From UHGV virus genome UHGV-1374414: a DNA stretch of 45,123 nt. One strand, written 5' to 3'. Source of the DNA: a virus. Under the pieces are notes generated by a model, which saw only the letters and a program-made list of their open reading frames with translations, did no database searches and was not told where the DNA came from. Positions 1 through 45,123 of this stretch are shown in pieces; position 1 is the first letter of the stretch; each line of letters begins with the position of its first letter. Position numbers and translations under genes: made by a program.

Positions 1-2153
1 AGCACGCCGCGCTCGACCATATCGTCGATTGCCTTCGTCGATGTGCCGCCTTTCGCAAGTCCAGCCTGGCGGACAATTGCCGATTTACTGAATCCGGTAT
101 GGTCCGGGTTATCTTCCATCAGTTTTTCCAGCGCCGCATAAAGCACTTTCTCTTTTTCGTTGCGCGGTCCTGCGGCGTTCTCCTCCTTAACTGCGGCTTT
201 GCCAGCGGCCTTCGCCTGTTCGATGGCGAACGGTGCCAGGGCGACCGGTACGAGGTAAAGAGTCTCGTCGCGTGGCGTGGATGCGATCGGCTTGACGTCC
301 CAACCGGCAACGACGTCACCGAAGTCTGGCCCGGTGCTGGTGGACTGGTGTGCTTCGAACGCTTCGGACTTGCGGAGATCAACCTTAACCTTGCACTTGA
401 GCAGGACGAAGCCGCGCGGCGCTTGCTTGATGCCGTTACGTGATTTTTCGTGATACAGGTTGAGTTGACCTGGCTGGTTGTCGTCCGGCTGTTCCAGGAA
501 GAACGCAGAATCGACAGCACCATGAAGCGCGCCGGACCCGCGTGGCGTTCTGCTGCCGTTTGCACCTTTCGCCGGGTGGTGGATGACGCCCGCACTGCCA
601 CCTGTATTTTCCGCAATGGCCTTCAGCGCCTTGACCACTTCGCCCATATCGCTGGCGTTGTTCTCGTCGAACGGTTTAGCATCGGCGGACCGCAACGCTA
701 CAGTCTGGTTGAGTGAGTCGAACGCCACCAGGCCAACCGGTTCGCCGTTAGCGGTGCGGTTGATGAAGCTGATAACTTCACGCAGTCCTGATTTGCTGGT
801 GATATCCCAGCCGCGTGATTGCAGATCGATAATGTGCAGCTTGTCCAGGTCGTGCTCGTATTTAATCTGCAATGCTTCCTTACGCTGGTTGGAGGCTTCA
901 CCACCTTCCGCGTCGAAATAGAAACAATGAGACTGGACGACCTTCGCACCGCCGAACGGAATACCCGCGGCAACCGCGCCCATTTGCCCCAGCACGTAGA
1001 ACGATTTGCCGATGTTAGACTCGCCAGCCATATACCAGGTCGATTTGAAGTTAATCAGCCCTTCGATGATCGGGTCGTGCTTACTGAACAGTGCGACCGG
1101 TTCGTTATCCAGGTCAGCGTCGGTACATACGCCGTACTCGTCGCCGTCTCCGACCGCATCAACAATATGATCATATAGGGACTCGACTTCCTCGTCGTCC
1201 AGTCCGGGGAGGATGGCGGCGATTTGCTTGCGTGACATGTTGTGCGGTTCGACGTTCAGGTGGTCCGGGATCCCGATAAGACGCAGCGCCAGGTGCTGGT
1301 GTCTGTTCAGTTCCGAGCAACACTCGTTGCCGGTGTGCATACACTTGAAACGGATCTCGCCATCCTTAACCATGATAGCCGTCGACCCTTCACCACTGTG
1401 CAGGTGTTCGTTCGGGCACGGCACTTCATAACCACGACCGGACGACAGCGGTTCGAATCCTGCCTGGAAGCACCAATCCAGAATGCCGTCCGCCACGCCG
1501 TCATCGCCCTGGGTCAGTTCGCGGCGTACTTCCTCTTTTTCCACTCCCAGCTTATCAGCCAGGCGAAGCAGACGACGGACGCGGGCACGTTTGCCGTAGT
1601 GACACTTAACAACCGATTGCTGGTGAGGCAGGTACATAAGGCGGTTTGTGTCTTTTGTACAATCATCGAAGTCCACATCTGACAGGCCCAGTTGGTGTAA
1701 TAGTGCATACTGGACGCGGCCCAGGTCTTCAGCCGGTACAGGCTTGTCAGTGAGCACCAGGAAACGGGCGCAACGCGTGCCGCCCTTCAGCGGGTGGCGG
1801 TCGCCGGTGGTGGTGTGAAATACGTGTTCCAGACCCGCGTCAATGAACGCCTTACGGCAGCGGCGCAGGGTGCGGGTGTCGGTGCGGTCAATATCAAAGA
1901 ACAGGATCGAGCGGTCCACCGCACTGGTCTTACGACGCAATCCGTCACTGGTATACGCCACGATGCCATCGGCCTTACGCTTGCGGCGCGCATACTCGGC
2001 TTTATCTTCCGTCTTGTTGATATGCACCGAGGAGATTTCTTTCGCATCTTTGATAAATTCGAAAAACTCATCGGTCGTCATCTGGAAGTTTTCCGCCCTG
2101 GCTTTTTCGCCTTTTTTAGCGGGTTTTGTTACAGCGAATTTAATCAAGCTCAT
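1..2153 (-). CDS. replicative primase/helicase (primase-polymerase-like N-terminal domain + P-loop helicase); 5' portion, ORF runs off left edge
   Basis: Stop-free minus-strand frame from ATG 2153-2151 (MSLIKFAVTKPAKK...) to position 1; absent from ORF track because no stop in window. Walker A GESNIGKS near 1002-1025; DxD-like ILFFDIDRTD and Cys/His cluster in N-terminal half. Confidence 0.75.
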   Translation of the reverse strand, partial: MSLIKFAVTKPAKKGEKARAENFQMTTDEFFEFIKDAKEISSVHINKTEDKAEYARRKRKADGIVAYTSDGLRRKTSAVDRSILFFDIDRTDTRTLRRCRKAFIDAGLEHVFHTTTGDRHPLKGGTRCARFLVLTDKPVPAEDLGRVQYALLHQLGLSDVDFDDCTKDTNRLMYLPHQQSVVKCHYGKRARVRRLLRLADKLGVEKEEVRRELTQGDDGVADGILDWCFQAGFEPLSSGRGYEVPCPNEHLHSGEGSTAIMVKDGEIRFKCMHTGNECCSELNRHQHLALRLIGIPDHLNVEPHNMSRKQIAAILPGLDDEEVESLYDHIVDAVGDGDEYGVCTDADLDNEPVALFSKHDPIIEGLINFKSTWYMAGESNIGKSFYVLGQMGAVAAGIPFGGAKVVQSHCFYFDAEGGEASNQRKEALQIKYEHDLDKLHIIDLQSRGWDITSKSGLREVISFINRTANGEPVGLVAFDSLNQTVALRSADAKPFDENNASDMGEVVKALKAIAENTGGSAGVIHHPAKGANGSRTPRGSGALHGAVDSAFFLEQPDDNQPGQLNLYHEKSRNGIKQAPRGFVLLKCKVKVDLRKSEAFEAHQSTSTGPDFGDVVAGWDVKPIASTPRDETLYLVPVALAPFAIEQAKAAGKAAVKEENAAGPRNEKEKVLYAALEKLMEDNPDHTGFSKSAIVRQAGLAKGGTSTKAIDDMVERGV

Positions 2154-2163
2154 TGCCGTGGCC

Positions 2164-2493
2164 TTACTTAGAAGTTTTATTATTGCGTACCCAGGAGCGC
2201 ACTGTGCTCTGATTAATTCCGGTCAACTCGGCAATCATCGCCCATGATTTACCCTCGGCGCGCAAACGGATAACCTGCTTTTTGTATTCTTCCATTTCTT
2301 CATTGTGTTTTTGCAGCTTGCTTGCTGCGGTACCGTTGAGTAGTTCCAGCCTGGCGCGCAATTCTTTTTCGGTAAGCCGTAGTCGTTCGATTTCGAATAA
2401 CACCGCCCCCACGGCATCTGTATAAGCCCATGACCGGCTTGTCTCACTGCAAACAGTCTTCGTTAACATTTCGATTGCGTCGTTTACATTCAT
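2164..2493 (-). CDS. helix-turn-helix DNA-binding protein (possible regulator)
   Basis: 109-aa ORF; C-terminal GKSWAMIAELTGINQSTVRSWVRN is a classic HTH; N-terminal coiled-coil; SD GAGGGA upstream; directly upstream of primase gene. Confidence 0.7.
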   Translation of the reverse strand: MNVNDAIEMLTKTVCSETSRSWAYTDAVGAVLFEIERLRLTEKELRARLELLNGTAASKLQKHNEEMEEYKKQVIRLRAEGKSWAMIAELTGINQSTVRSWVRNNKTSK

Positions 2494-12888: not shown

Positions 12889-13347
12889 ATGAAAATTTTA
12901 CAAGAAGAGAAAAATTACTGGGCCGCGCAATGCCTCGAAGCCCGCGAGCAAGCCGATCGGGCGAACGCGGTGGCGGACACCAACCAGGCGCTATATGAAG
13001 GCGAGAAGAAAGTGCGCCAGGAGCTAGAGGAGCGCTTCGAACTGCTTTTCGAATTGATGGGGATTATGCAGCGCACTGGATACACAACCAGCGTTGCGCT
13101 AAATCGCATCACTGCCGATGGTTTGCGTGAGCATTGCAAACGTGCCGAGGAGTACGTGCGCCCAAAAGGTCGCCAGTCTAAGATCGACCGTAAAGATCTG
13201 GTGCTTGTGGCGTGGCGCAATCCCACAAATGGCTATTTTCATGGTCGCCCTATGAGCGCCGAGGAGTCAAAGCGAGTGCAGCGAATCCTGAAGAAAGGCA
13301 ACAATATCGCCCTGTACGCGATAGCCCCCGACCATGACGAAGAATGA
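12889..13347 (+). CDS. hypothetical protein
   Basis: 152 aa; SD GGAG 8 nt upstream. Confidence 0.6.
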   Translation: MKILQEEKNYWAAQCLEAREQADRANAVADTNQALYEGEKKVRQELEERFELLFELMGIMQRTGYTTSVALNRITADGLREHCKRAEEYVRPKGRQSKIDRKDLVLVAWRNPTNGYFHGRPMSAEESKRVQRILKKGNNIALYAIAPDHDEE

Positions 13348-25036: not shown

Positions 25037-27679
25037 TCATCGTTTGTAAAGTACACCACCCGGTTTCGTCGCTTTCACGATCTCGGCCTTCACCGCTTCG
25101 GTGATTTGCTTTCCGAACGCCTGCGCGGTGCGCGGGTCTGGTCCGCTAACACTGGTATCCGTCTTACCGGTCCCCATGTTAACGTTGGTCGTTACAATCA
25201 TCCCTCCGCCTACACCGGCAGCGGCAACGCCCAGTTTGCCGTCCGGCCCGCGCTTCAGTGGCATGATGGCTTCGGGTCCGGCCTCCCCCATCAATCCTGC
25301 GCCCTTAGCGAACGCCTGGACGCCATAACTGAAAAAGGTGGGCTGGCTTACCACTTGCCCCGAATAGGCCGCTAGGTTGCCCCCTGCGTACGCTCCGCCG
25401 TCCGCATTCTTAGTGAGGCCGGAAAAGATAGCGCCGAACAATCCGTTTTTGCCGCCGTCGCCACCGAAAGCGCTAACGATGGACTTGAACGCCTGCGAGG
25501 TAGCCAGCTTTATTAATTCGCTCAGAATGGACTTAACCATATCTTTTGCGTTCAGCTTGCCAGTCTCGAAAAACTCGTTCATCGTGTCCTGCATAGCGCC
25601 GAACGTGAATTTTGTGAGTGACGCCATCTGCGTATAGCCGTTACCCATTTCATCCACGCTATCCTTAAGCCCACGGCTGAATCCATCCCATAGTGAGGCG
25701 TTAGCACCGGTCTGTGCTTCCTGCACTTCGCGCAGCTTAGACACCGCCAGATCAATATCGGTATCGTTAGCGCCCACCCGCTTCAGGCGGTCAATTAGCT
25801 GCAATTCTTCGCGCAGGTTAGCCGCTTCGCGAGTGGAAAGCGCATAGCCCGCCGCGGTTGCTTTTAGCTCGGCGTTCTGGTTCTTAACGAAGGCGTCGAT
25901 CTGCGCGTGCGCCTTGACCTGCTTCTCTTTCGCGTCCAGCAATTTAGCTTCTTCTACGATCTGCTCGCGGACTTCCTTCACGCGCCCGAACTCGACTAAT
26001 TGCTGCTTCTCTGCTGCCGTTAGTGCCCTTTCTTTGCTTGCGGCGATTAACTGCTCATTATCCGCGATCAGCTTGTTTAGGGCCGCTTGCGCGCGTTGCG
26101 TGCGGGTCTGCGTCGAGGAGTTGGCTTCGATCTGCTTTCCAGACTCACGAAGCTGTGCCAGTTCGCTTCGCGCGACTTCCAGCATTTTCAGCCCGGCATC
26201 GACTCGAATAGCGGCGGCCTTCTTCGGGGCGGGGTCTTTGTAACGCTTGTTTACCTGCTTCACCGCCTCGGCAAGCTCTTTCTCGTCAATCACGCCGCGC
26301 TTATTAAGCAAATTGAGGCGGGCGATCTCGTCGGCGCGCCTCTTCGCGTTGGTTGCGTACTCCTTCTCAAACGCAGCGCGGTCGCGGGCGGTGCGGTTTG
26401 CCTCTTCGTTCGACTTTGCTGCTTCATCCGCGGCGCGGGCGTTGTCACGCTCCGCACGGTTACGCAGGGTGAGCGACGCCACTACTTTTTCCTGGGCTAC
26501 CAGTTCGCTATAAAGCATGTTAATACGTGCTTTCTGCGCCTCGGTCATTACCCCACCGGCAGCGTTTACCGCTTTCATCTCGGCATAATAGGCCGTAGTC
26601 ATGCGCTGCAAGGATTCCCGCGCTTTCATCTCGGACTCATTCGAGGACTGCGCGCGACCCACATCCAGGATTGCATCCCACATAGATTTCGCTGCCGATG
26701 TGACGACGTTCATCGACCGCTCAAGCGTGCCCATGTTGGACTTAATATCGTTGGTCATAGTGGTGAACGACGCGGCTGCGGTTTTGTTAGCCAGCGCCAC
26801 TGCTTCAGTCTCACGACCCATATCCACAAGCGACTGCACCTGCTGGATCTGCGCTTCGTTTACGACGTGATACTTATCCGCCAATGCTCGCAAGCCGCCT
26901 ACCGGGTCGGTTGACAGCTTCGCCACCGCCGCGACCACATCCTCGATCGGCTGGCTGGATACCTTCGAAAAATCATTCACCACTTTCGCCAGCGTGCCGA
27001 AGTCTGCACCCGCTTTCACACCAGCCGCCGCCAGTGCCTGGATTGTGTCACGCGTTTTACGGAATGACCCGCCCATGCGCTCGGCGTTCTCGGATAGCAC
27101 CAGGATCTGGTTTGCCGTTAGGCCGGAAATGTTACCTGACAGCGCCAGCGTCTTGTTAAGCGCTGCGACCTGGTTCTCTGCGCGGGACGTAATTGCCACG
27201 CCCACGCCTAACGTTGCCGTTACGGCGGCAAGGCCGATCCCTACTGGGCCGAGGAAGCCCGCAACAAAACGCAGCGTGTTACCCAGTCCGCCGAACGCCC
27301 CGGTAAGCTGTGGTAACTGCTGAAGCATAACGCGGTGCACCGGCATACCCATCTCAAGCGTAACTGCGATATCCTGTAACTGGAATGCGGCGTTACGCGA
27401 GGCAAAGCCCAGGTTTTTGGTCGACATGCCTAACCGGTTGGCAAGTCGCTCCTGTTTCGTCATGCCATCGGCGGCGCGCTGCGATTCGTTCGCCAGCTTT
27501 TCCATTCCTCCCGCGGCGTCACTCGTCACCTTTTTGGATTTGCCGAGGGTGTCGTTTAATTTCTTAACCTTGTTTTCTGTGTTCTCGGATTTCTGTGCGA
27601 AGGAGTCCAACACAGTATTTGCCGTTCTGATTTGTGCAACATCCGCCTTCAGCGTGATGCCTGCTGCTTGATCTGCCAT
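25037..27679 (-). CDS. tail tape measure protein
   Basis: 880 aa; Ala/Gln/Lys-rich, coiled-coil-like; SD AAGGGGA; position between chaperone and distal tail genes. Confidence 0.85.
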   Translation of the reverse strand: MADQAAGITLKADVAQIRTANTVLDSFAQKSENTENKVKKLNDTLGKSKKVTSDAAGGMEKLANESQRAADGMTKQERLANRLGMSTKNLGFASRNAAFQLQDIAVTLEMGMPVHRVMLQQLPQLTGAFGGLGNTLRFVAGFLGPVGIGLAAVTATLGVGVAITSRAENQVAALNKTLALSGNISGLTANQILVLSENAERMGGSFRKTRDTIQALAAAGVKAGADFGTLAKVVNDFSKVSSQPIEDVVAAVAKLSTDPVGGLRALADKYHVVNEAQIQQVQSLVDMGRETEAVALANKTAAASFTTMTNDIKSNMGTLERSMNVVTSAAKSMWDAILDVGRAQSSNESEMKARESLQRMTTAYYAEMKAVNAAGGVMTEAQKARINMLYSELVAQEKVVASLTLRNRAERDNARAADEAAKSNEEANRTARDRAAFEKEYATNAKRRADEIARLNLLNKRGVIDEKELAEAVKQVNKRYKDPAPKKAAAIRVDAGLKMLEVARSELAQLRESGKQIEANSSTQTRTQRAQAALNKLIADNEQLIAASKERALTAAEKQQLVEFGRVKEVREQIVEEAKLLDAKEKQVKAHAQIDAFVKNQNAELKATAAGYALSTREAANLREELQLIDRLKRVGANDTDIDLAVSKLREVQEAQTGANASLWDGFSRGLKDSVDEMGNGYTQMASLTKFTFGAMQDTMNEFFETGKLNAKDMVKSILSELIKLATSQAFKSIVSAFGGDGGKNGLFGAIFSGLTKNADGGAYAGGNLAAYSGQVVSQPTFFSYGVQAFAKGAGLMGEAGPEAIMPLKRGPDGKLGVAAAGVGGGMIVTTNVNMGTGKTDTSVSGPDPRTAQAFGKQITEAVKAEIVKATKPGGVLYKR

Positions 27680-27744
27680 TATGCAGTCCCCTTTTTTTTA
27701 TGCAGTTGCCGATTGACATTGTATCAGCGAATTTCAAACAAACC

Positions 27745-27918
27745 TTATGCAGTCTCAGACGAGGGGGACCATTGACCCCCGTCTAGTCTGAAAGACTGGG
27801 GTTTGTCCCGCCTGTCCCGATCGGCTAAAAACCGCGGCAGCACTGGCTGGGGCGGGGTGCTGTCCCGCTTTGTCCCGCCCATTGTTTGTCCCGCTTTCTG
27901 TCCCGCTTACTTTATGCA
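27745..27918. repeat. composite repeat element copy 1: GC-rich hairpins followed by array of TGTCCCGC iterons, bounded by TTATGCA motifs
   Basis: Hairpin cagacgaggggg/cccccgtctag 27756-27786; six TGTCCCG(C) direct repeats (27794, 27803, 27861, 27871, 27886, 27898); about 85 percent identical to 44690-44873. Confidence 0.8.
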
Positions 27919-27929
27919 CGAAATCCGAA

Positions 27930-28062
27930 TAGGTATGCACATTTACAGGGCGGGACAAAACGGGACGTCCCGCTTGTCCCGTTTTGAGTTTATGCAGTGG
28001 AAGTGAGTAGGTATGCAGTTTTGCAGGTGCGGGACAAAACGGGACGTCCCGCTTGTCCCGCT
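27930..28062. repeat. two tandem ~80-bp units each containing a 33-bp palindromic core GCGGGACAAAACGGGACGTCCCGCTTGTCCCG
   Basis: Cores at 27949-27981 and 28028-28060 with perfect 12-bp palindrome CGGGACGTCCCG; each preceded by GTATGCA. Confidence 0.8.
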
Positions 28063-28742
28063 TCACTGTGCGGGGTTCTGCTGCGCCATCTCATCAAGCG
28101 CAATTCGTTCCATTAGCTTGATATCTTTAAACGCGCGCTGCTCGTTTTCGATACCGTGCATCTTAAATAACCACTCCAGCACGCCGTAGTCGATGCCGTA
28201 TGCGCCACCAAATCCGGTGCGCCATTGCGTTGAGCAATCTGTGAAGACTGCGACTACCTTCGCGTTGTCGGGCCATAGCGCAACAGGCGGACAAACATCT
28301 TCGGGGGCCGCGCCCCATAAACTTGCGGCTAAATCTTCGGAGGGTGGCGGCGGGCCATAAAAGCGTCGCGCCGCCTCAATTAGTTTTTTTCACGCAATCC
28401 CATCAGTTCGAGATAGTACGACGTGTGGAACACACCGAACGCGCGTGGGTAGTTGACCACCAGGCGGCGGACGTTCTCCGCGTTGAATTCGTCTGGCAGA
28501 TTCCAGCCTTCTGCGACGTGCATGATGGCCTCGACCATAACGTTAAAGCCGTCCGGGTCATTGTCGTCATATTCCGACAGCTTGCGTTCAGTGTCCTGCA
28601 TGGTCTGCGAAAATTCGTCGATCGGGCGGTGGCGTACGGTAAACGTCATTTTGCCGGGTTCGGTCTCACCAGGGCGCGGGATCTCAATCGGCAGCTTAAA
28701 GGTTGGTTTAGGGTCAAGTGTGAAGAGTGGTGCTTTAGCCAT
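28063..28742 (-). CDS. tail assembly chaperone G-T fusion made by programmed -1 ribosomal frameshift
   Basis: G frame ends at A7 run (mRNA G AAA AAA AC UAA); -1 frame then stays open about 105 codons to TGA at 28063-28065. Confidence 0.6.
28380..28742 (-). CDS. tail assembly chaperone (lambda G-like)
   Basis: ATG 28742 with GGAGA SD (ORF-track start 28757 is TTG); 120 aa; between major tail and tape measure genes. Confidence 0.7.
   Translation of the reverse strand: MAKAPLFTLDPKPTFKLPIEIPRPGETEPGKMTFTVRHRPIDEFSQTMQDTERKLSEYDDNDPDGFNVMVEAIMHVAEGWNLPDEFNAENVRRLVVNYPRAFGVFHTSYYLELMGLREKN
28383..28389 (-). other. -1 frameshift slippery heptamer A_AAA_AAC
   Basis: Seven consecutive A on minus strand (plus-strand T7 at 28384-28390) two codons before G stop. 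Confidence 0.55.
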
Positions 28743-28758
28743 TGTAGTATTCTCCAAT

Positions 28759-37265: not shown

Positions 37266-38651
37266 TTAGTAGAAGTCTACAGTTGGAACAACGGCGACAG
37301 GACGAATCACTGGGAACAGGTGCGCAATTGGATAGCCAGCGGCATCGTTCATGTGGTCCACACCGGCGGTTTTATCCGGCTCGCCTTTCTTCAGGTCGTA
37401 AACCTGCTGTTCCAGACATTTCGCTAGTGTAGGGCATTTATCCAGGTTGACAAAATACTGGCGCACGCCCTTCGAGTTGCACATCATCGTATTCATCGCG
37501 ATCAATCGGTCTTTCACAGGTGGGTTAACACTGTCATACTCCACCTCGAAGCCCGCGTCTTCCAGTTGCGCTATATCGGACGATGATGCGTTGACAGTCT
37601 TGCGAGACTTGCCGCTGCTATCCGGGTAAACGACAACACGACCGGCAGCACAATGATCGGGGTAGCGCTCCTCGATCGCCTCAATCATAGCCGGGGTATC
37701 GAACAGGTCCACGAATTCATCCACTGCGTGAATCTCGTCGCGGAACTCCTTGTTTTCGGTGATGCGCTGCCGTCTGACGTACACGACCGCCGCCATTTTC
37801 GTGACGTTAAAGTCCATACCGATAATCAGCGTGTCTTCCGGCTGCACTTCTTCGGTGCTGGCGTTATCCTCACGATTGAACATCTTGTATACCGCGCCCG
37901 ACGTAAGGTTGACAAACATACCGTTCAGGTACGCATCAATCAGGTTAGCCGGGTACTGGCTGCGCAGAGTGTCGATAAAGTCAGCCGGTAAGTGGTGATT
38001 ATCGGTAGTCTTCGCCCGGATCAAACGTTTCTGGCTATCCTTCTCCACTTCGAAAATCTGGTACATCGCCCGGAAGCCTTCAGGCGTGGATACGATGACG
38101 AACTGGCGTACCAAGCCAGCACGCAGACGACCAAGCAATTTGTGATATGCCGCCATCGCGACGTCTTGCTTCGTGGTGTCGAACTCGTCGGCAACAATCC
38201 ATGCGGCGTTAACCCCGATAAGGCGGGTGTAGTTTTCCATTGACTCGCAGATTACGCGGGTCCATTTGCCTTTCACCAGAACGCTGTAGATCTTGTCCTG
38301 CTTATTGAACTTCCACCGGAAGCCCGCCTCGTCAAACGCCTTTTCCAATTCTGGATACATGATTTTAACCAGAAGTGGAATAGTCGGTTCTGTAACGATG
38401 CCATCATGACCAGGGTTCAGGGTTAAAAGCTGGATGACCTTTCGCGCCGCGACCCATGACTTGCCACCACCGAAGCCGGAGCACAGGCCGAGGATTTTAG
38501 TCTTCGTGTCGCGCAGTAGCTCCACCTGGTGAGGAAGGCAATCAGGCTGGTAAAGGCGGACGGCCTGTGCAACGCGTGTCGGGCGCGGCGGTCTGTTTCG
38601 CTTTGCGATCGCGCGTTCAAGGGCGCGATGTTCTGCCGCATAGTTACGCAT
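37266..38651 (-). CDS. terL: terminase large subunit
   Basis: 461 aa; Walker A GFGGGKS, Walker B WIVADEFD; start overlaps small subunit stop (TAATG). Confidence 0.85.
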   Translation of the reverse strand: MRNYAAEHRALERAIAKRNRPPRPTRVAQAVRLYQPDCLPHQVELLRDTKTKILGLCSGFGGGKSWVAARKVIQLLTLNPGHDGIVTEPTIPLLVKIMYPELEKAFDEAGFRWKFNKQDKIYSVLVKGKWTRVICESMENYTRLIGVNAAWIVADEFDTTKQDVAMAAYHKLLGRLRAGLVRQFVIVSTPEGFRAMYQIFEVEKDSQKRLIRAKTTDNHHLPADFIDTLRSQYPANLIDAYLNGMFVNLTSGAVYKMFNREDNASTEEVQPEDTLIIGMDFNVTKMAAVVYVRRQRITENKEFRDEIHAVDEFVDLFDTPAMIEAIEERYPDHCAAGRVVVYPDSSGKSRKTVNASSSDIAQLEDAGFEVEYDSVNPPVKDRLIAMNTMMCNSKGVRQYFVNLDKCPTLAKCLEQQVYDLKKGEPDKTAGVDHMNDAAGYPIAHLFPVIRPVAVVPTVDFY

Positions 38652-39202
38652 TACTCACCCTGACCTTTGCCAGTAGGCTCCACAACGACGTCGCCGTTAT
38701 CATCTTCGTCGTCATCCAGCGGTACATCGTCCCGGACGCCGTGGTTGGCTTTAAGCAGGAAGGTAGCGAAGCCCGCCGCGATGGTCACGCCGCCAGCTTC
38801 CATCAGGAACGTTTTCTGCAACTCCATAGCGTCCGCCATCGCCTCGGCGAACTCCTCATGTGCGCGCGCCCAGCGGTACAGGCAGGCGACGCCTACACCA
38901 ATATCTGCGGCAAAGCGACCTAGAGTCGGCATCTTGTTGCGAGGGATTACCTGCGCAGCACCTTTGTCGGAGTAGTTGATTTGCCAGGCTACGGCATCGG
39001 CGAAATAGCGGCGAAGCTGGTCACAATACACGGTACGGTAGTCGGTAGGACGTCCACATTTGCCGCCTCTACGGCGCTTGCCGTATTCGATCTCCGGCCC
39101 GAGATTGGTGTGTTCTGTTTGCTCGCCTGGTTTACGGCGCGGGGTAACTGCTACTCGTCCGTCCAGTTTAGCGCGACGGCCTTTAACTTTAATTTCTGCC
39201 AT
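38651..39202 (-). CDS. putative terminase small subunit
   Basis: ATG 39202 with AAAGGG SD; basic N-terminus, acidic C-terminus; translationally coupled to terL. Confidence 0.5.
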   Translation of the reverse strand: MAEIKVKGRRAKLDGRVAVTPRRKPGEQTEHTNLGPEIEYGKRRRGGKCGRPTDYRTVYCDQLRRYFADAVAWQINYSDKGAAQVIPRNKMPTLGRFAADIGVGVACLYRWARAHEEFAEAMADAMELQKTFLMEAGGVTIAAGFATFLLKANHGVRDDVPLDDDEDDNGDVVVEPTGKGQGE

Positions 39203-39282
39203 GATATAAGCCCTTTTGTGCATATGCGCCGACCATCGGCAACATAGGAGACGGCCCTGCCATCTAAGGGGATTATAACAGG

Positions 39283-39318: not shown

Positions 39319-39531
39319 TTAAACGGGGCGACCGTAGTATCGGGTTAACATGCTTTCTACTTCGCGTATAGCGCCTTCTGTGTAGCGTATTTGCGATAGT
39401 ATCTCGATCCGCTCGCTGATAGACATGCCTATCGCCGCTGCCGTTCGTTCGAATCGGCGCAAGCCTTCGAGTTGTTTGCGTAGTTCCTTCAGGCGGGTGG
39501 CCTGCGTGCTCATGAATACTTGTCTAATCAT
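39319..39531 (-). CDS. hypothetical protein
   Basis: 70 aa; start overlaps upstream stop (ATGA). Confidence 0.45.
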   Translation of the reverse strand: MIRQVFMSTQATRLKELRKQLEGLRRFERTAAAIGMSISERIEILSQIRYTEGAIREVESMLTRYYGRPV

Positions 39532-40670
39532 TTCAACATTTCCGGGCTAATGGTTAAGCGCGCTACTTCGCCGTAGTTGGCGCTGTAGGTGATTACGTTG
39601 GCACTGCGTCCGGACATCCAACCGCCGCGGCTGGCATATGCGTCTTTCGCTGCGAGGGTCCGGTGCTGTTCAACAATCATGTTGCGGGATTCAACAATCT
39701 TCTGGTGGTGCAAGTGGCCTACATGCGCGTAGCTGTACTCGCTGGCCCCGAAAGCCTGTCTGAATTTAGAAATCATAACGGTTTCGATGGCATCGAAGCG
39801 CGCTTTGTGCCCGTGGTGGAAGAACAGCGTGGTCTTGCCGTGCTGCACCATTTTGTACACGTCCGGGGACGTGTCCACATCGACACGAGGCTCGTTCTCG
39901 TACAGCGTATTGAACATTTCAGCCAGCCAAATCATACCAGACTCGTCATGATTCCCCTGGACGATTAGCAGTTTGACTTTGTGGTGTTTTTGCAGCGCCA
40001 GCTCCACCACGTTGCGCACCATGCGAATCATGTATCGTACCAGCTTCTGGTAGCGGGTATCTGCGTCCAGTACGTGACCGCTGGCAGGAGTGACGGCATC
40101 GAGGCTATCAAAGTGGGCCATATCACCGAGGATATTAATCACGGCAGTGCCTGCGTCCGGTGCGCGTGCGAAGGCTTCGACAAACCAGCGGTAGAACAGG
40201 TCTTCGGCAATCGCCATATCCCAGTCTTCGCCCGTCTCTTCGCCCCAGGCCAACATGCCCAGGTGGAAGTCGGACACGGTGTACAGGTTGAGTAGGTCAA
40301 GTGCCTGGATCGGGACTGGTGGGGCGCTTACTGGTGCTGCCGGTTTTATTTCGCTGTTCATACCCTCGACAACAGCGCGCATGGCTTCAAGCTGGCGCTC
40401 CTTGTCCTGCTCAGTGATAACCCACGACATGACTTCTTCGCCATTGCCGCGCACCAGGGCGGATACGCGCTTAACACCGAAGCCATCGGCAACGCGCTTA
40501 CGGATTACGGCATCGTTACCGTGACCAATACCTTTCTTCGACAGGCGGGCTTTGCGCATGTAGACATTTCGGAGGGAAAGACCGTACCTCTTAGCAATAT
40601 CTTTCGAGGTAGTGCCGGATTGCAACTCGGCGATCAATTGCTCGTCGGTGATTTTAGTTTGCGGGTGCAT
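39528..40670 (-). CDS. calcineurin-like metallophosphoesterase with N-terminal HTH domain
   Basis: 380 aa; N-terminal TSKDIAKRYGLSLRNVYMRKARL (HTH); phosphoesterase motifs SDFHLG, GDMAHFD, GNHDE, HHGH, GHLHH. Confidence 0.7.
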   Translation of the reverse strand: MHPQTKITDEQLIAELQSGTTSKDIAKRYGLSLRNVYMRKARLSKKGIGHGNDAVIRKRVADGFGVKRVSALVRGNGEEVMSWVITEQDKERQLEAMRAVVEGMNSEIKPAAPVSAPPVPIQALDLLNLYTVSDFHLGMLAWGEETGEDWDMAIAEDLFYRWFVEAFARAPDAGTAVINILGDMAHFDSLDAVTPASGHVLDADTRYQKLVRYMIRMVRNVVELALQKHHKVKLLIVQGNHDESGMIWLAEMFNTLYENEPRVDVDTSPDVYKMVQHGKTTLFFHHGHKARFDAIETVMISKFRQAFGASEYSYAHVGHLHHQKIVESRNMIVEQHRTLAAKDAYASRGGWMSGRSANVITYSANYGEVARLTISPEMLK

Positions 40671-42279: not shown

Positions 42280-42566
42280 TTTGCACCCCCCGGAAGTCGG
42301 AACGACGCAATAGTCCCCCTGATCCGGTCGGCGATTGGCATCCAGAAGATCGCAGTTACGAAGCCCAAACCGGCGACAGTGCGCTCACCCGACAAACCAG
42401 CCCACTCAGCGATAGCCGGTGCGCCAAATATGGCACACAGGAAGCCAACTACGATATATAAAACGAAGTTCAGCGGCCCTTTCGTAGCCTCGCCATGAAT
42501 GCGTGCGCCTACGAAGCCGCCAGCCAGACATGCGATGGCAAATAGCCACTCGTTTATCTTATCCAT
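42276..42566 (-). CDS. holin-like membrane protein
   Basis: 96 aa; three predicted TM helices; first gene after upstream terminator. Confidence 0.55.
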   Translation of the reverse strand: MDKINEWLFAIACLAGGFVGARIHGEATKGPLNFVLYIVVGFLCAIFGAPAIAEWAGLSGERTVAGLGFVTAIFWMPIADRIRGTIASFRLPGGAK

Positions 42567-42567
42567 A

Positions 42568-42600
42568 AAAAAGTCCCAGTAAGTTTTAGCTCACTGGGAC
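42568..42600 (-). terminator. intrinsic terminator upstream of lysis cassette
   Basis: Minus strand: 9-bp perfect stem agtcccagt/actgggact followed by tttttt. Confidence 0.55.
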
Positions 42601-42618
42601 TATATCACGCTTGCATAA

Positions 42619-42906
42619 TTAATCGAAAATGGACCACTTGCCGACGCCTTTCCACTCCCACCCGGATGATCGAACGGCTTCGAATGTTCGACCGCCTATC
42701 ATATCCCGATACCATAGCCACCACATGCGAAGCCGGGTTGGGTGTTCCGTGATGCCACGGCGCTTGTATATCTGGAATGTCATGCGGGTAATGCTGGCAG
42801 CTTCCACGGCAGGCCAAATCAGGAATACCCATATCGCGCCCAGCACTGCCTTGGTAAGGCATAGCCAACTGGCCAATCCAAACCAATATATAAAATCGTG
42901 TAACAT
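42619..42906 (-). CDS. small membrane protein
   Basis: ATG 42906 with GGAGGGGG SD; 95 aa; hydrophobic N-terminal helices; overlaps alternative ORF 42819-43031. Confidence 0.5.
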   Translation of the reverse strand: MLHDFIYWFGLASWLCLTKAVLGAIWVFLIWPAVEAASITRMTFQIYKRRGITEHPTRLRMWWLWYRDMIGGRTFEAVRSSGWEWKGVGKWSIFD

Positions 42907-44477: not shown

Positions 44478-44505
44478 TGTTCAGTCCTCATGTTGGTGTG
44501 CAACC

Positions 44506-44534
44506 AATATAGCAGGGTGCCAGGGCGGATGCAA
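44506..44534 (-). promoter_or_regulatory. sigma70-like promoter TTGCAT-17-TATATT (minus strand) from two ATATTGGTTGCA repeats
   Basis: Minus-strand -35 = plus 44529-44534, -10 = plus 44506-44511. Confidence 0.5.
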
Positions 44535-44611
44535 CCAATATTAATCACGCGCATGAAAAAGTTGATCGCTATCTGCTGTGACTGCAAACTGCGTTTTTCA
44601 CTCCGCATAAT

Positions 44612-44630
44612 GCAACCTGCATTGGTTGCC
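44612..44630. promoter_or_regulatory. inverted repeat GCAACC-tgcatt-GGTTGC (motif-derived operator-like site)
   Basis: Perfect 6-bp arms; overlaps ATTGGTTGCC at 44621-44630. Confidence 0.35.
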
Positions 44631-44689
44631 TAGTTCACCGGCGACCGCACTTCGCATCATGCTGCCGTGTATTTTGCAATCCCCGGATT

Positions 44690-44873
44690 TTATTCAGTCT
44701 CAGACGAGGGGGGCCACTGACCCCCGTCTAGTCTGAAAGACTGGGGTGCTGTCCCGCTGTCCCGCTCCTCTGGAAGCCGCGCCATCCGGGGCGGGACTGG
44801 GGTGCTGTCCCGCTTTGTCCCGCCCCTTGTTTGTCCCGCTTTTTGTCCCGCTTACTTTATGCAATAAAACTGC
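44690..44873. repeat. composite repeat element copy 2 (hairpins + TGTCCCGC iteron array), near primase gene 3' end
   Basis: About 85 percent identical to 27745-27918 in same orientation; five to six TGTCCCGC iterons; AT-rich tract follows. Confidence 0.8.
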
Positions 44874-44900
44874 ATAACTATTCACTATATCTACACTACA

Positions 44901-45002
44901 CGGCAACCAATGCGACCAGCTAAAAACACTCAATCCGGCAACCAATGCTCGCACAAATTAATCGTTTAGCGATATGGGGATTCCCATATCGGCAACCAAT
45001 GC
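44901..45002. repeat. three direct repeats of CGGCAACCAATGC plus a 20-bp palindrome
   Basis: Repeats at 44901-44913, 44936-44948, 44990-45002; palindrome GATATGGGGATTCCCATATC at 44971-44990. Confidence 0.7.
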
Positions 45003-45014
45003 GCGCAGAATTTA

Positions 45015-45123
45015 ATCTTTTAAATCATCATCGGTCGCCGAAAGCGTGATGGGTATATTCGTTTTAATGACGATATTCGACGACCCATAGATGGCCCCGG
45101 TATGCGGATCGGTATAAAAACCG
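45015..45123 (-). CDS. 3' end of the same primase/helicase gene if the sequence is circular (stop TAA at 45012-45014)
   Basis: Minus-strand frame open from right edge to TAA. The 2 leftover nt at positions 2-1 plus 1 nt at 45123 make an in-frame CTC codon, giving ...DMVERGV-L-GFYTDPHTGAIYGSSNIVIK...DDDLKD*. Confidence 0.55.

What the first reader, a model, noticed from the sequence alone, without database searches (positions are those of the whole stretch)
27680..28062. 383-bp non-coding insert between the G-T chaperone and tape measure genes with iteron array, hairpins and palindromic units
In lambda-like tail operons the G-T and tape measure genes are normally adjacent. Here they are separated by a structured element: a GC-rich hairpin (27756-27786), six TGTCCCG(C) direct repeats at roughly one-helical-turn spacing, seven TATGCA motifs, and two tandem ~80-bp units each with a 33-bp palindromic core containing CGGGACGTCCCG. 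The density and periodicity suggest a protein-binding array: candidate replication origin, packaging (pac) site, or a regulatory/RNA element in the late transcript.
Basis: seen in the sequence. Interest (0 to 1): 0.85.

Follow-up and report, generated by a model that had tools for sequence, protein, structure and literature searches.

The report
Second replication-origin-like site inside tail operon
The 383-bp gap between two tail genes of this E. coli phage is most likely a second docking site for the phage's own DNA-replication starter protein, copied from the origin-like sequence next to that protein's gene; the kind of element is known, but its position inside the tail operon is unusual.

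Summary
Window 27680-28063 is a non-coding gap between the G-T tail chaperone stop and the tape measure start (genes on the minus strand). It carries 14 GTCCCG iterons, two hairpins, seven TATGCA boxes and two 79-bp tandem units.

The window is a Dhillonvirus genome (HK578/SO-1 group), and all 159 public relatives have the element. The SO-1 GenBank record already flags it as "region A", similar to a "region B".

Region B (44478-45011) lies directly behind the primase-helicase gene and shares a 173-bp module with A. Across many unrelated phages, homologues of this protein have an iteron array right after their stop codon. The iteron sequence changes from clade to clade, together with the protein's C-terminal winged-helix domain. 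Where the iteron is switched (GTGTGGCA, GGTGCCA, CGCCCCG), both sites carry the new one.

Best reading: A is a cis-acting binding array for the replication initiator, either a second origin or a distal enhancer like phage P4 crr. A pac site, a structured RNA, a terminator and a protein-coding gene are not supported. No binding or origin activity has been shown. This is a new variant of a known kind, of moderate interest.

The parts
27680..28063 (.). Region A: the whole non-coding element between the G-T stop and the tape measure start
   Evidence: Present in 159 phage records. Lengths are 372-405 bp with every remainder mod 3, and the window's 103-aa ORF frame is broken in most orthologues. 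That ORF has no Pfam or PHROG hit.
27745..27918 (-). Module A: the 173-bp unit shared with region B. On the minus strand it reads four iterons, a spacer, two iterons, hairpin 2, hairpin 1, then a TTATGCAGT box.
   Evidence: A-B identity 73-89%; A-A 84-94%; B-B 73-98%
27757..27784 (.). Hairpin 1: GC-rich stem of 9 bp with a 2-nt bulge and an 8-nt loop
   Evidence: Stems are invariant and loops variable among relatives. One A-T to G-C double change occurs in L146/L148.
27785..27797 (.). Hairpin 2: AGTCT-GAA-AGACT. Its 5' arm can also pair with AGACTG beyond hairpin 1.
   Evidence: Invariant in Dhillonviruses. In L274 the loop changes but the stem is kept.
27804..27905 (+). Six direct TGTCCCG iterons, starting at 27804, 27813, 27861, 27871, 27887 and 27899
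27911..28063 (.). Two tandem 79-bp units. Each has two TATGCA boxes 21 bp apart and a 35-nt core of four iterons arranged two forward, two reverse (cores 27950-27984 and 28029-28063).
27679..27753 (+). Three TTATGCAGT boxes (27679, 27698, 27745). On the minus strand a conserved TGATACAAT at 27726..27718 resembles an extended -10 element, about 40 nt before the tape measure ATG.
   Evidence: invariant across 19 sequences; also in L149, L276 and L279. It was not called by the promoter scan, so promoter function is inference only.
44478..45011 (.). Region B: non-coding stretch directly 3' of the primase-helicase stop. It contains module B and GCAACCAAT boxes.
44690..44863 (-). Module B: the partner of module A, with hairpin 1 at 44702-44729, hairpin 2 at 44730-44742 and seven GTCCCG cores
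1..2153 (-). Primase-helicase gene, first 2153 nt. The window is a circular permutation cut inside this gene. This is the proposed binder of the iterons.
   Evidence: AAA_25; PHROG 3228 replicative helicase-primase; N-terminal AEP primase fold
45012..45123 (-). Primase-helicase gene, last 109 nt plus the stop codon (45012-45014). This encodes the end of the C-terminal winged-helix domain and the acidic tail.
28064..28757 (-). Tail chaperone genes G and G-T (upstream neighbour)
   Evidence: The T part is DUF1799 in relatives.
25037..27679 (-). Tape measure gene (downstream neighbour)

Best explanation
Region A is non-coding DNA that acts in cis as a binding array for the phage's own replication initiator. 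That initiator is a 754-aa fusion of an AEP-type primase, a zinc ribbon, a RepA-like (AAA_25) helicase and a C-terminal winged-helix domain. Region A is an expanded copy (14 iterons against 7) of the origin-like module that sits directly behind the initiator's gene (region B).

Proposed mechanism:
1. The winged-helix domain recognises the TGTCCCGCTT iterons.
2. Bound protein assembles into the helicase ring and opens the DNA next to the array.
3. The two conserved hairpins extrude.
4. The primase domain starts synthesis there, as in the IncQ plasmid RSF1010 origin (iterons plus the ssiA/ssiB hairpins).

Region A then serves either as a second origin about 16 kb from the first, or as a distal enhancer that loops to region B, like the crr site of phage P4.

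Shown here: the element is non-coding and conserved. The A/B duplication is real. Iteron arrays are linked to the 3' end of this gene family. The iterons co-switch in A and B. The primase and winged-helix folds are predicted with reasonable confidence.

Inferred only: which domain binds, any origin firing, looping, and any role of the hairpins.
For: 1. **Non-coding and conserved.** The element is present in all 159 Dhillonvirus-type records at 80-93% identity. It has 1-2 nt indels and a broken reading frame. Iterons, hairpin stems and TATGCA boxes are conserved while spacers and loops vary.

2. **A and B share a module.** A 173-bp module is common to A and B, and B begins right after the primase-helicase stop codon.

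3. **The array travels with the gene family.** Nine unrelated IMG/VR contigs have a homologue with 5-16 CGGGAC/GTCCCG cores within 400 bp after its stop and none within 400 bp before its start. No other window protein recurs in those loci.

4. **The iteron differs by clade.** All arrays below lie directly 3' of the gene.

| Clade or locus | Identity to window protein | Iteron |
|---|---|---|
| Dhillonvirus and L272 | L272 68% | GCGGGACA |
| L273 | 68% | GTGTGGCA |
| L274 | 69% | GTGTGCCA |
| L275 | 67% | GGTGCCA |
| L270 | 48% | ACTCGCAA |
| L271 | 46% | GCTGCCAAC |
| vB_SenTO17 | 44% | GGGGGAGA |

5. **The protein's C-terminus varies with it.** The C-terminal domain is the least conserved part of the protein, with 23-25% invariant columns against 53-72% in the helicase core. 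The start of its third helix differs between iteron types. The adjacent HTH_23 protein has an invariant helix-turn-helix across the same clades.

6. **A and B switch together.**
   - One 27,589-nt contig starts just upstream of the tape measure gene and ends just downstream of the primase-helicase gene. Its first and last 27 nt are identical: ggggTGTGGCAagTGTGGCAgcacacc.
   - GGTGCCAGCACC occurs in region A of L279/L280 and in region B of L275.
   - Edwardsiella phage eiAU-183 has CGCCCCG iterons and a 52-nt segment 88% identical at both sites.

7. **Predicted folds.**
   - The best, though weak, PDB sequence hit is RSF1010 RepA.

8. **Precedents.** P4 alpha binds origin repeats through a winged helix. 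pRN1 and phage BIP-1 have their origin 3' of the replication gene with a stem-loop. RSF1010 combines iterons with ssi hairpins (PMC4234260; PMC8567376). P4 crr is required in cis for replication (bioRxiv 10.64898/2026.03.30.715334).
Against: - No experiment or read-depth data shows binding or origin activity.
- GC skew follows transcription direction and cannot locate an origin.
- There is no clear AT-rich unwinding element. The AT-richest 30-nt windows in A reach only 60-67%, against 45% for the genome.
- DnaA-box-like sites are not enriched.
- The unrelated contigs that also use CGGGAC have a C-terminal domain of quite different sequence, so the helix-to-iteron mapping is not simple.
- Co-variation with the primase-helicase cannot fully exclude another co-inherited binder.
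- vB_SenTO17, with a 44%-identical initiator, manages without any site A. A second site is therefore not a general requirement of this protein family.
- A's position, with a conserved -10-like element just before the tape measure gene, is equally compatible with a role in transcription.
Confidence: 0.6

Rival explanations
1. Initiator-dependent transcription control. The primase-helicase, or another iteron binder, bound at A acts as a roadblock or activator. This would set how much tape measure and distal tail protein is made relative to the chaperones, or tie late tail-gene expression to replication. The element would be a regulatory copy of the origin, not a working origin.
For: - A sits inside an operon, directly before the tape measure gene.
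- A TGATACAAT element like an extended -10 lies about 40 nt upstream of the ATG. It is invariant in 19 Dhillonviruses and present in sister clades.
- Both modules have the same orientation relative to transcription.
- Plasmid initiators commonly repress promoters through iterons (own knowledge).
Against: - The promoter and terminator scan calls nothing in A or B on the transcribed strand.
- No T-run follows either hairpin.
- The module in B is not followed by the same -10-like element.
- The hairpin-plus-iteron architecture is shared with arrays 3' of primase-helicase genes in unrelated phages that have no tail-gene context.
Confidence: 0.15
2. Negative control by titration or handcuffing. A is a sink of 14 iterons that sequesters the initiator or pairs with B to delay or limit origin firing, like incA of plasmid P1.
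For: A has twice as many iterons as B. It is not adjacent to the gene. Iteron sinks are an established control principle in plasmids (own knowledge).
Against: A virulent phage gains little from limiting its own replication. A also retains both hairpins and the complete module, which a mere sink would not need. The full architecture is conserved from Dhillonvirus to Eiauvirus.
Confidence: 0.07
3. RNA-level element in the late transcript: a terminator, attenuator or processing site, or a small RNA formed by the hairpins and palindromic cores. Two GenBank records (WFI, WF5505) annotate a 'terminator' here.
For: Hairpins fold better than shuffles (z = -2.3 to -4.0). WFI annotates a putative terminator on the second palindromic core. 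A position between a high-copy chaperone and a low-copy tape measure would suit attenuation.
Against: - No U-tract follows any hairpin on the transcribed strand.
- The palindrome CGGGACGTCCCG is lost in EP23, Kente and KarlBarth while the half-sites stay.
- Rfam gives nothing.
- Stems are invariant, so there is almost no covariation.
- An RNA role does not explain why the repeat unit switches in step with the primase-helicase.
Confidence: 0.08
4. Packaging (pac) site or physical genome end.
For: Several public records or contigs begin or end inside the element: Kente, CHD5UKE2, eiAU-183, and four metagenome contigs.
Against: - Those ends fall at the edges of the stretch that A and B share exactly, as expected for assembly breaks at a repeat. 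One contig carries the same 27 nt at both ends.
- The element is about 10 kb from the terminase genes (38651-39223 and 37266-38651).
- It travels with the primase-helicase in phages that share no packaging genes.
Confidence: 0.02
5. A small protein-coding gene: the 103-aa ORF 27755..28066 on the minus strand, or the short 'hypothetical proteins' annotated here in several records.
For: An ORF exists in the window, and some GenBank records annotate one to three small genes here.
Against: In 19 distinct orthologues the length takes every remainder mod 3, and the frame is interrupted by stops or shifted in most. There is no Pfam or PHROG hit.
Confidence: 0.01

Closest known systems
Phage P4 ori plus crr, bound by the alpha primase-helicase
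   Same: - One multifunctional primase-helicase with a C-terminal winged-helix domain binds short repeats at its origin (PMC4234260).
- A second, distant site carrying the same repeats is required in cis for replication (crr; bioRxiv 10.64898/2026.03.30.715334).
- From my own knowledge (Flensburg and Calendar 1987; Ziegelin and Lanka 1995), crr consists of two direct repeats of about 120 bp carrying the same octamer as ori, about 4.5 kb away. That resembles the two 79-bp iteron-bearing tandem units of region A.
   Different: P4 alpha has a bacterial Toprim primase and an SF3 helicase. Here the primase is AEP-type and the helicase is RepA/AAA_25. There is no sequence similarity in the iterons. 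Site A lies inside the tail operon of a virulent 45-kb phage, not a satellite. A requirement for A has not been tested.
IncQ plasmid RSF1010 oriV with RepC, RepA and RepB'
   Different: RSF1010 uses three separate proteins, and its two ssi hairpins lie on opposite strands within one origin. Here there is one fused protein and two separated sites in the same orientation. The hairpin sequences are unrelated, and priming at them is pure inference.
pRN1 ORF904 and phage BIP-1 origins
   Same: The origin lies directly 3' of the gene for a replication protein built from a primase, a helicase and a winged helix, and it includes an essential stem-loop (PMC4234260).
   Different: Those origins lack iterons and have a single site. 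Their helicase is SF3.
GenBank annotation of Sodalis phage SO-1 (GQ502199): repeat_region 'region A' and 'region B'
   Same: It is the orthologous element (89% identity), described as direct, inverted and palindromic repeats with similarity between A and B.
   Different: It is an annotation note only, and its last words are cut off in the tool output ('possible ...'). It makes no link to the primase-helicase winged helix, to iteron switching or to other genera.
Plasmid P1 incA / incC iteron sets
   Same: Two iteron clusters for one initiator, one of them outside the origin proper (own knowledge).
   Different: incA is a negative, dispensable control element of a low-copy plasmid and has no hairpin module.

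Membership tests
Iteron-type replication origin (plasmid or phage) | Cluster of short repeats of one sequence, in direct and/or inverted order | tested here: met
   14 GTCCCG cores in 383 bp, consensus TGTCCCGCTT
Iteron-type replication origin (plasmid or phage) | A cognate initiator is encoded by the same replicon and matches the repeats in specificity | tested here: met
   By association only. Arrays lie 3' of primase-helicase homologues in 9 unrelated contigs. The iteron type changes with the C-terminal domain, and A and B switch together. Binding itself is untested.
Iteron-type replication origin (plasmid or phage) | Adjacent AT-rich DNA-unwinding element | tested here: inconclusive
   Only moderately AT-rich stretches, at most 60-67% AT in 30-nt windows against 45% for the genome
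Iteron-type replication origin (plasmid or phage) | Host DnaA boxes | tested here: not met
   TTATNCACA with up to one mismatch: 29 matches against 26.8 expected in the window, two of them in A. This feature is not universal in phage origins.
Iteron-type replication origin (plasmid or phage) | Supports initiation of DNA synthesis (autonomous replication or a marker-frequency peak) | not testable with these tools
   Needs infection time-course sequencing or origin cloning
P4 crr-like distal cis replication site | Second site, kilobases from the gene-proximal site, carrying the same initiator repeats | tested here: met
   A and B are 16.4 kb apart and share a 173-bp module
P4 crr-like distal cis replication site | Built of tandem direct repeats that each carry several iterons | tested here: met
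   Two 79-bp units with four iterons each
P4 crr-like distal cis replication site | Required in cis for origin function | not testable with these tools
   Needs a deletion mutant
IncQ-type oriV (iterons plus ssi hairpins) | RepA-family helicase and AEP-fold primase | tested here: met
IncQ-type oriV (iterons plus ssi hairpins) | Two ssi hairpins on opposite strands, homologous to ssiA/ssiB | tested here: not met
   The two hairpins are tandem on one strand and show no resemblance to a 40-nt inverted-repeat pair. This is an analogy, not membership.
Intrinsic (rho-independent) terminator | GC-rich stem-loop followed by a T/U run on the transcribed strand | tested here: not met
   The scan finds none on the minus strand in 27680-28063. 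The only minus-strand hit is upstream of gene G, at 28781-28765.
Known structured RNA family (Rfam 15) | Match at or near the gathering score | tested here: not met
   No hit at gathering threshold in the whole window. The best permissive hits are 18-20 bits against gathering scores of 53-76.
Protein-coding gene | Reading frame preserved among orthologues | tested here: not met
   Frame broken in most of 19 orthologues; lengths not multiples of 3
pac site | Lies in or next to the small terminase gene, or co-varies with terminase | tested here: not met
   The element is about 10 kb from terS/terL. Terminase homologues appear in only two iteron-bearing loci, L041 and L050. Physical termini are untested.

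The most novel reading that the evidence does not exclude
Region A is a working second origin placed on purpose inside the late operon, so that initiator loading and fork firing at A physically gate transcription into the tape measure and tail-tip genes. This would be a replication-coupled switch for tail-gene dosage, conserved from Dhillonvirus to Eiauvirus, whose specificity can be re-programmed by co-switching the iterons and the winged helix.
Probability: 0.12. Interest if true: 0.75.

Novelty: new variant of a known kind. Interest (0 to 1): 0.5.

Why it matters
Dhillonviruses are common E. coli phages used in therapy and defence-system screens, yet neither literature search that paired "Dhillonvirus" with a relevant term ("repeat" or "origin of replication") turned up a paper describing their origin.

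- **Testable origin sites.** The analysis gives two concrete candidate origin sites and a candidate binder.
- **A possible recognition code.** Natural specificity switches (GGGACA, GTGTGGCA, GTGTGCCA, GGTGCCA, CGCCCCG) pair with small changes in one helix. That could yield a recognition code for a widespread primase-helicase family.
- **Annotation.** It explains why annotators keep calling spurious small genes and "terminators" in this gap.
- **Assembly.** It explains why assemblies of these phages break at two fixed places.
- **Engineering.** The G-T/tape measure junction tolerates inserts, but region A itself should probably be left intact.

Tried and rejected
- **DnaA boxes.** TATGCAC resembles TTATNCACA, but the pattern is not enriched (29 against 26.8 expected). 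Dropped.
- **Sigma-54 or sigma-70 promoter reading of the TGCATA boxes.** The spacing does not fit, and the scan calls nothing.
- **Mini-CRISPR array or anti-CRISPR RNA.** This would be a 35-nt repeat with a 44-nt spacer. The "spacers" are 72% identical to each other, so it is simply a tandem duplication. The repeats are built from the iteron, and Rfam is silent.
- **N15-type dispersed partition sites.** GGGAC resembles the F sopC half-site (from memory), but the window is a virulent Dhillonvirus. The array tracks the primase-helicase. Rejected.
- **GC-skew origin mapping.** The skew simply follows gene orientation.
- **Search for GTGTGGCA arrays in IMG/VR.** It returned 120 loci that were almost all single chance matches and contained no relative.
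- **G-protein relatives in IMG/VR.** Only close Dhillonviruses came back. The more distant relatives came from the protein database instead.
- **Formal covariation count on the hairpins.** The stems are nearly invariant and the 3' arm does not align in register, so no count was made.
- **L277 (the phage of L271).** Its 236-bp gap has AAGGGAT four times and one copy of that phage's region-B iteron. Similarity to its region B is too weak to count as a site A.
- **P4 primary literature.** The review PMC372931 is not held, so details of crr structure rest on my own knowledge.
Full report
**What is there.** The tail genes in this part of the window are on the minus strand.
- Chaperone G is 28757..28380 (Pfam Phage_TAC_4). 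Its slippery GAAAAAAAC leads into the G-T extension, which stops at 28066-28064.
- The tape measure gene is 27679..25037 (TMP_2 and Tape_meas_lam_C).
- They also contain seven TATGCA boxes and two tandem 79-bp units with a 35-nt core of four half-sites.
- None of this is chance. TGTCCCG occurs 18 times in the window against 6.4 expected, a count reached by 0 of 100 shuffles, and 16 of the 18 lie in two clusters.
- All five exact copies of TTATGCAGT are in the same two clusters.

**Identity of the genome and prior knowledge.** The window is a complete, circularly permuted Dhillonvirus genome (the HK578, SO-1 and EP23 group). The element is found in 159 phage records at 80-93% identity. The GenBank record of Sodalis phage SO-1 already marks it as repeat_region "region A", with "sequence similarity with region B" and a truncated "possible ...". 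Other records put one to three small hypothetical genes or a "terminator" here. The repeat region is therefore a known observation at annotation level. The two literature searches that paired "Dhillonvirus" with "repeat" or "origin of replication" listed no paper that explains it.

**It is not a gene and not a known RNA.** Across 19 distinct orthologues the length is 372-405 bp and takes every remainder mod 3. The window's 103-aa ORF is interrupted or frame-shifted in most of them, and it has no Pfam or PHROG match. Rfam finds nothing at gathering threshold in the whole window and nothing meaningful at a permissive threshold. No hairpin is followed by a T-run on the transcribed strand. The palindrome CGGGACGTCCCG, which one record calls a terminator, is replaced in EP23, Kente and KarlBarth by CGGGACAGCACCCC, while the flanking half-sites stay. 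What is conserved is the set of iterons, the hairpin stems, the TATGCA boxes and a TGATACAAT element about 40 nt before the tape measure ATG. Spacers and hairpin loops drift.

**The second copy.** Positions 27745-27918 are duplicated at 44690-44863, with 84% column identity over the aligned A and B stretches. The copy has the same order and orientation: a TTATKCAGT box, hairpin 1, hairpin 2, two iterons, a spacer of about 34 bp, four iterons, then TTTATGCA.
- The window is cut inside a 754-aa gene that runs on the minus strand from 2153 to 1 and continues from 45123 to 45015.
- Region B (44478-45011) therefore starts at that gene's stop codon.
- In eight genomes, A copies group with A and B copies with B (A-A 84-94%, B-B 73-98%, A-B 73-89%). 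The duplication is therefore older than the genus.
- Some variants are shared by A and B of the same genome: "ggcgggacgtcccg" in LM40P1 and the loop "ccgctga" in EP23. That indicates occasional homogenisation or common selection.

**The protein next to region B.** Its domains are as follows.
- Pfam sees only AAA_25, the RepA-type helicase family. PHROGs calls it a replicative helicase-primase. The best, weak PDB sequence hit is RSF1010 RepA.
- The protein therefore combines in one chain the three activities that RSF1010 splits between RepB', RepA and RepC (PMC4234260; PMC8567376).

**The array travels with the gene family.** A scan of IMG/VR for two adjacent TGTCCCG copies found dense CGGGAC/GTCCCG arrays in contigs unrelated to this phage. 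These typically have inverted iterons around a G-run/C-run hairpin. The only window protein with recurrent homologues in those loci is the primase-helicase. With a family profile, nine such loci have the homologue, with 5-16 iteron cores within 400 bp after its stop and none within 400 bp before its start.

**The iteron changes with the protein.** I looked directly behind primase-helicase genes of graded relatedness.

| Locus | Identity to window protein | Iteron 3' of the gene | Start of third helix (winged helix) |
|---|---|---|---|
| Dhillonvirus (window) | reference | GCGGGACA | GGTSTKAIDDM |
| L272 | 68% | GCGGGACA | GGTNTTAINAL |
| L273 | 68% | GTGTGGCA | GGSSTKPINDL |
| L274 | 69% | GTGTGCCA | GGSTSKPVYDL |
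| L275 | 67% | GGTGCCA | GGSTTTAINAL |
| L270 | 48% | ACTCGCAA | SGNYKKVLEEL |
| L271 | 46% | GCTGCCAAC | GGKRRPAIQSL |
| vB_SenTO17 | 44% | GGGGGAGA | GGDRYKILKDL (from P0032, phage FSL SP-031, also 44%; assumed equivalent) |

The hairpins and the nearby GCAACCAAT boxes stay in place in the closer clades. The C-terminal domain is the least conserved part of the protein among the five closely related (67-69% identical) iteron clades (23-25% invariant columns against 53-72% in the helicase core), and the helix starts above come. It is a better candidate for the invariant GCAACCAAT boxes.

**Regions A and B switch together.** This is the key result for the finding.
- Relatives found through the G and tape measure proteins (57-65% identity) all have an insert at the same junction, often with extra reverse-strand genes.
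- L146 and L148 carry CGGGAC iterons and the same two hairpins. Hairpin 1 there has one A-T to G-C double change.
- L149 has the same hairpins, but about a dozen GTGTGGCA/TGCCACAC repeats in the iteron positions.
- Contig ERR11172925_9173 (27,589 nt) begins 215 nt upstream of its tape measure gene and ends 110 nt downstream of its primase-helicase gene.
- Both ends of that contig read ggggTGTGGCAagTGTGGCAgcacacc. The assembler stopped at the A/B repeat, and both sites carry the switched iteron.
- A third type, GGTGCCAGCACC, is seen upstream of the tape measure gene in L279/L280 and downstream of the primase-helicase gene in L275.
- Edwardsiella phage eiAU-183 (genus Eiauvirus; tape measure 38% identical) has CGCCCCG repeats and a 52-nt segment 88% identical at both sites. 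It also has a GACGGGGG...CCCCTCGTC hairpin before its tape measure gene.
- vB_SenTO17 has no such element at that junction.
- The two-site layout is therefore old, spans at least two genera, and is not universal for the protein family.

**How it most likely works.** The simplest account is that the winged-helix domain of the primase-helicase reads the iterons at both sites. By analogy with P4 alpha, pRN1 ORF904 and RSF1010, bound protein would assemble the helicase, open the DNA and prime at the extruded hairpins (PMC4234260; PMC8567376). Region B, at the 3' end of the gene, is the expected origin. Region A, with twice the iterons and two tandem iteron-bearing units, looks either like a second origin or like P4's crr. 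The crr site is required in cis for replication and, from my own knowledge, consists of two direct repeats carrying the origin's octamer. Only the associations are shown here. Binding, melting, priming and looping are inferred.

**What argues for caution.**
- There is no strongly AT-rich unwinding element.
- DnaA boxes are not enriched.
- GC skew is uninformative.
- The unrelated CGGGAC-using phages have a C-terminal domain of different sequence.
- The conserved -10-like element, and the fact that both modules face the same way relative to transcription, leave room for a transcriptional role.
- I put 0.6 on a replication cis-element bound by the initiator and 0.15 on initiator-dependent transcription control. 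Titration, an RNA element, a pac site and a coding gene share the remainder.

**Verdict.** The kind of element is known (iteron origins, and the bipartite ori/crr of P4). New here are the pairing with an AEP/RepA/winged-helix fusion, the placement of the second site inside the tail operon, and the natural series of coordinated iteron switches. Interest is moderate (0.5).

Noticed in passing
window 2682, 9866, 12808, 12825, 14481, 17534, 22998, 33638, 33651, 43981, 44500, 44531, 44621, 44903, 44938, 44992: GCAACCAAT occurs 16 times exactly (30 with up to one mismatch, against 11.8 expected). The copies are often in pairs and, judged by eye against the ORF list, mostly near gene boundaries. Six of them flank module B. 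The box is also conserved in sister clades and in eiAU (GCAACCAA, 23 copies). It may be a genome-wide promoter or operator element, and the invariant HTH_23/sigma70-r4-like 109-aa protein (2164-2493, minus strand) is a candidate binder.
   Followed up: partly
records OX460974 (Kente), MZ234029 (CHD5UKE2), NC_023555 (eiAU-183); contigs L273/L276, L279, L280: Public records and metagenome contigs of these phages repeatedly start or end inside region A or B, at the edge of the sequence the two regions share. These are probably assembly breaks at the repeat. They could be mistaken for physical termini.
   Followed up: partly
L146 3674-4054, L148 3674-4422, L149 3677-3850, L278 (eiAU-183) 42367-42720: The junction between G-T and the tape measure gene is an insertion hot spot. 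Sister clades carry one or two reverse-strand genes of unknown function there, each next to TTGGTTGC boxes, between the chaperone stop and the iteron element.
   Followed up: no
L035 9454-9953, L032 6222-6721, L014 4501-4800, L069 4520-4720, L010 3759-3920, L102 1278-1480, L076, L051, L053: Unrelated viral contigs, both GC-rich and AT-rich, share CGGGACA iteron arrays around a G-run/C-run hairpin directly 3' of an AAA_25 primase-helicase. The C-terminus of that protein has its own conserved motif (W..FY....KKAF.RA...L). This looks like a widespread origin-initiator pairing; I did not search the literature for it.
   Followed up: partly
L037 6124-6260: Six tandem 22-bp units, GTCCCGGGACAAATCGGGACAT, give 24 cores in 300 bp. 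No primase-helicase homologue is detected in the 12-kb locus. Unexplained.
   Followed up: no
window 45015-45035 (minus strand) and alignment A2: The primase-helicase ends in a conserved acidic tail (D-[DE]-D-L-x-D; the D and L are invariant in 23 homologues). It resembles the acidic C-terminal tails of T7 gp4 and gp2.5 that contact the polymerase (own knowledge). The genome also encodes a Pol I-type polymerase.
   Followed up: no
window 39528-40670 (minus strand): The 380-aa protein annotated in SO-1 as 'putative transcriptional regulator' gives only weak metallophosphoesterase hits in Pfam (E 2e-4 and 1e-3). EP23 annotates it as a phosphoesterase. It is probably not a DNA-binding regulator.
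   Followed up: partly
window 44857-44890; L130 (vB_SenTO17) 12900-12935: TGCATAACTATTCAC is shared between Dhillonvirus region B and the region 3' of the primase-helicase gene of a Salmonella phage whose protein is only 44% identical and whose iteron is different. This points to an older conserved origin component of unknown role.
   Followed up: no
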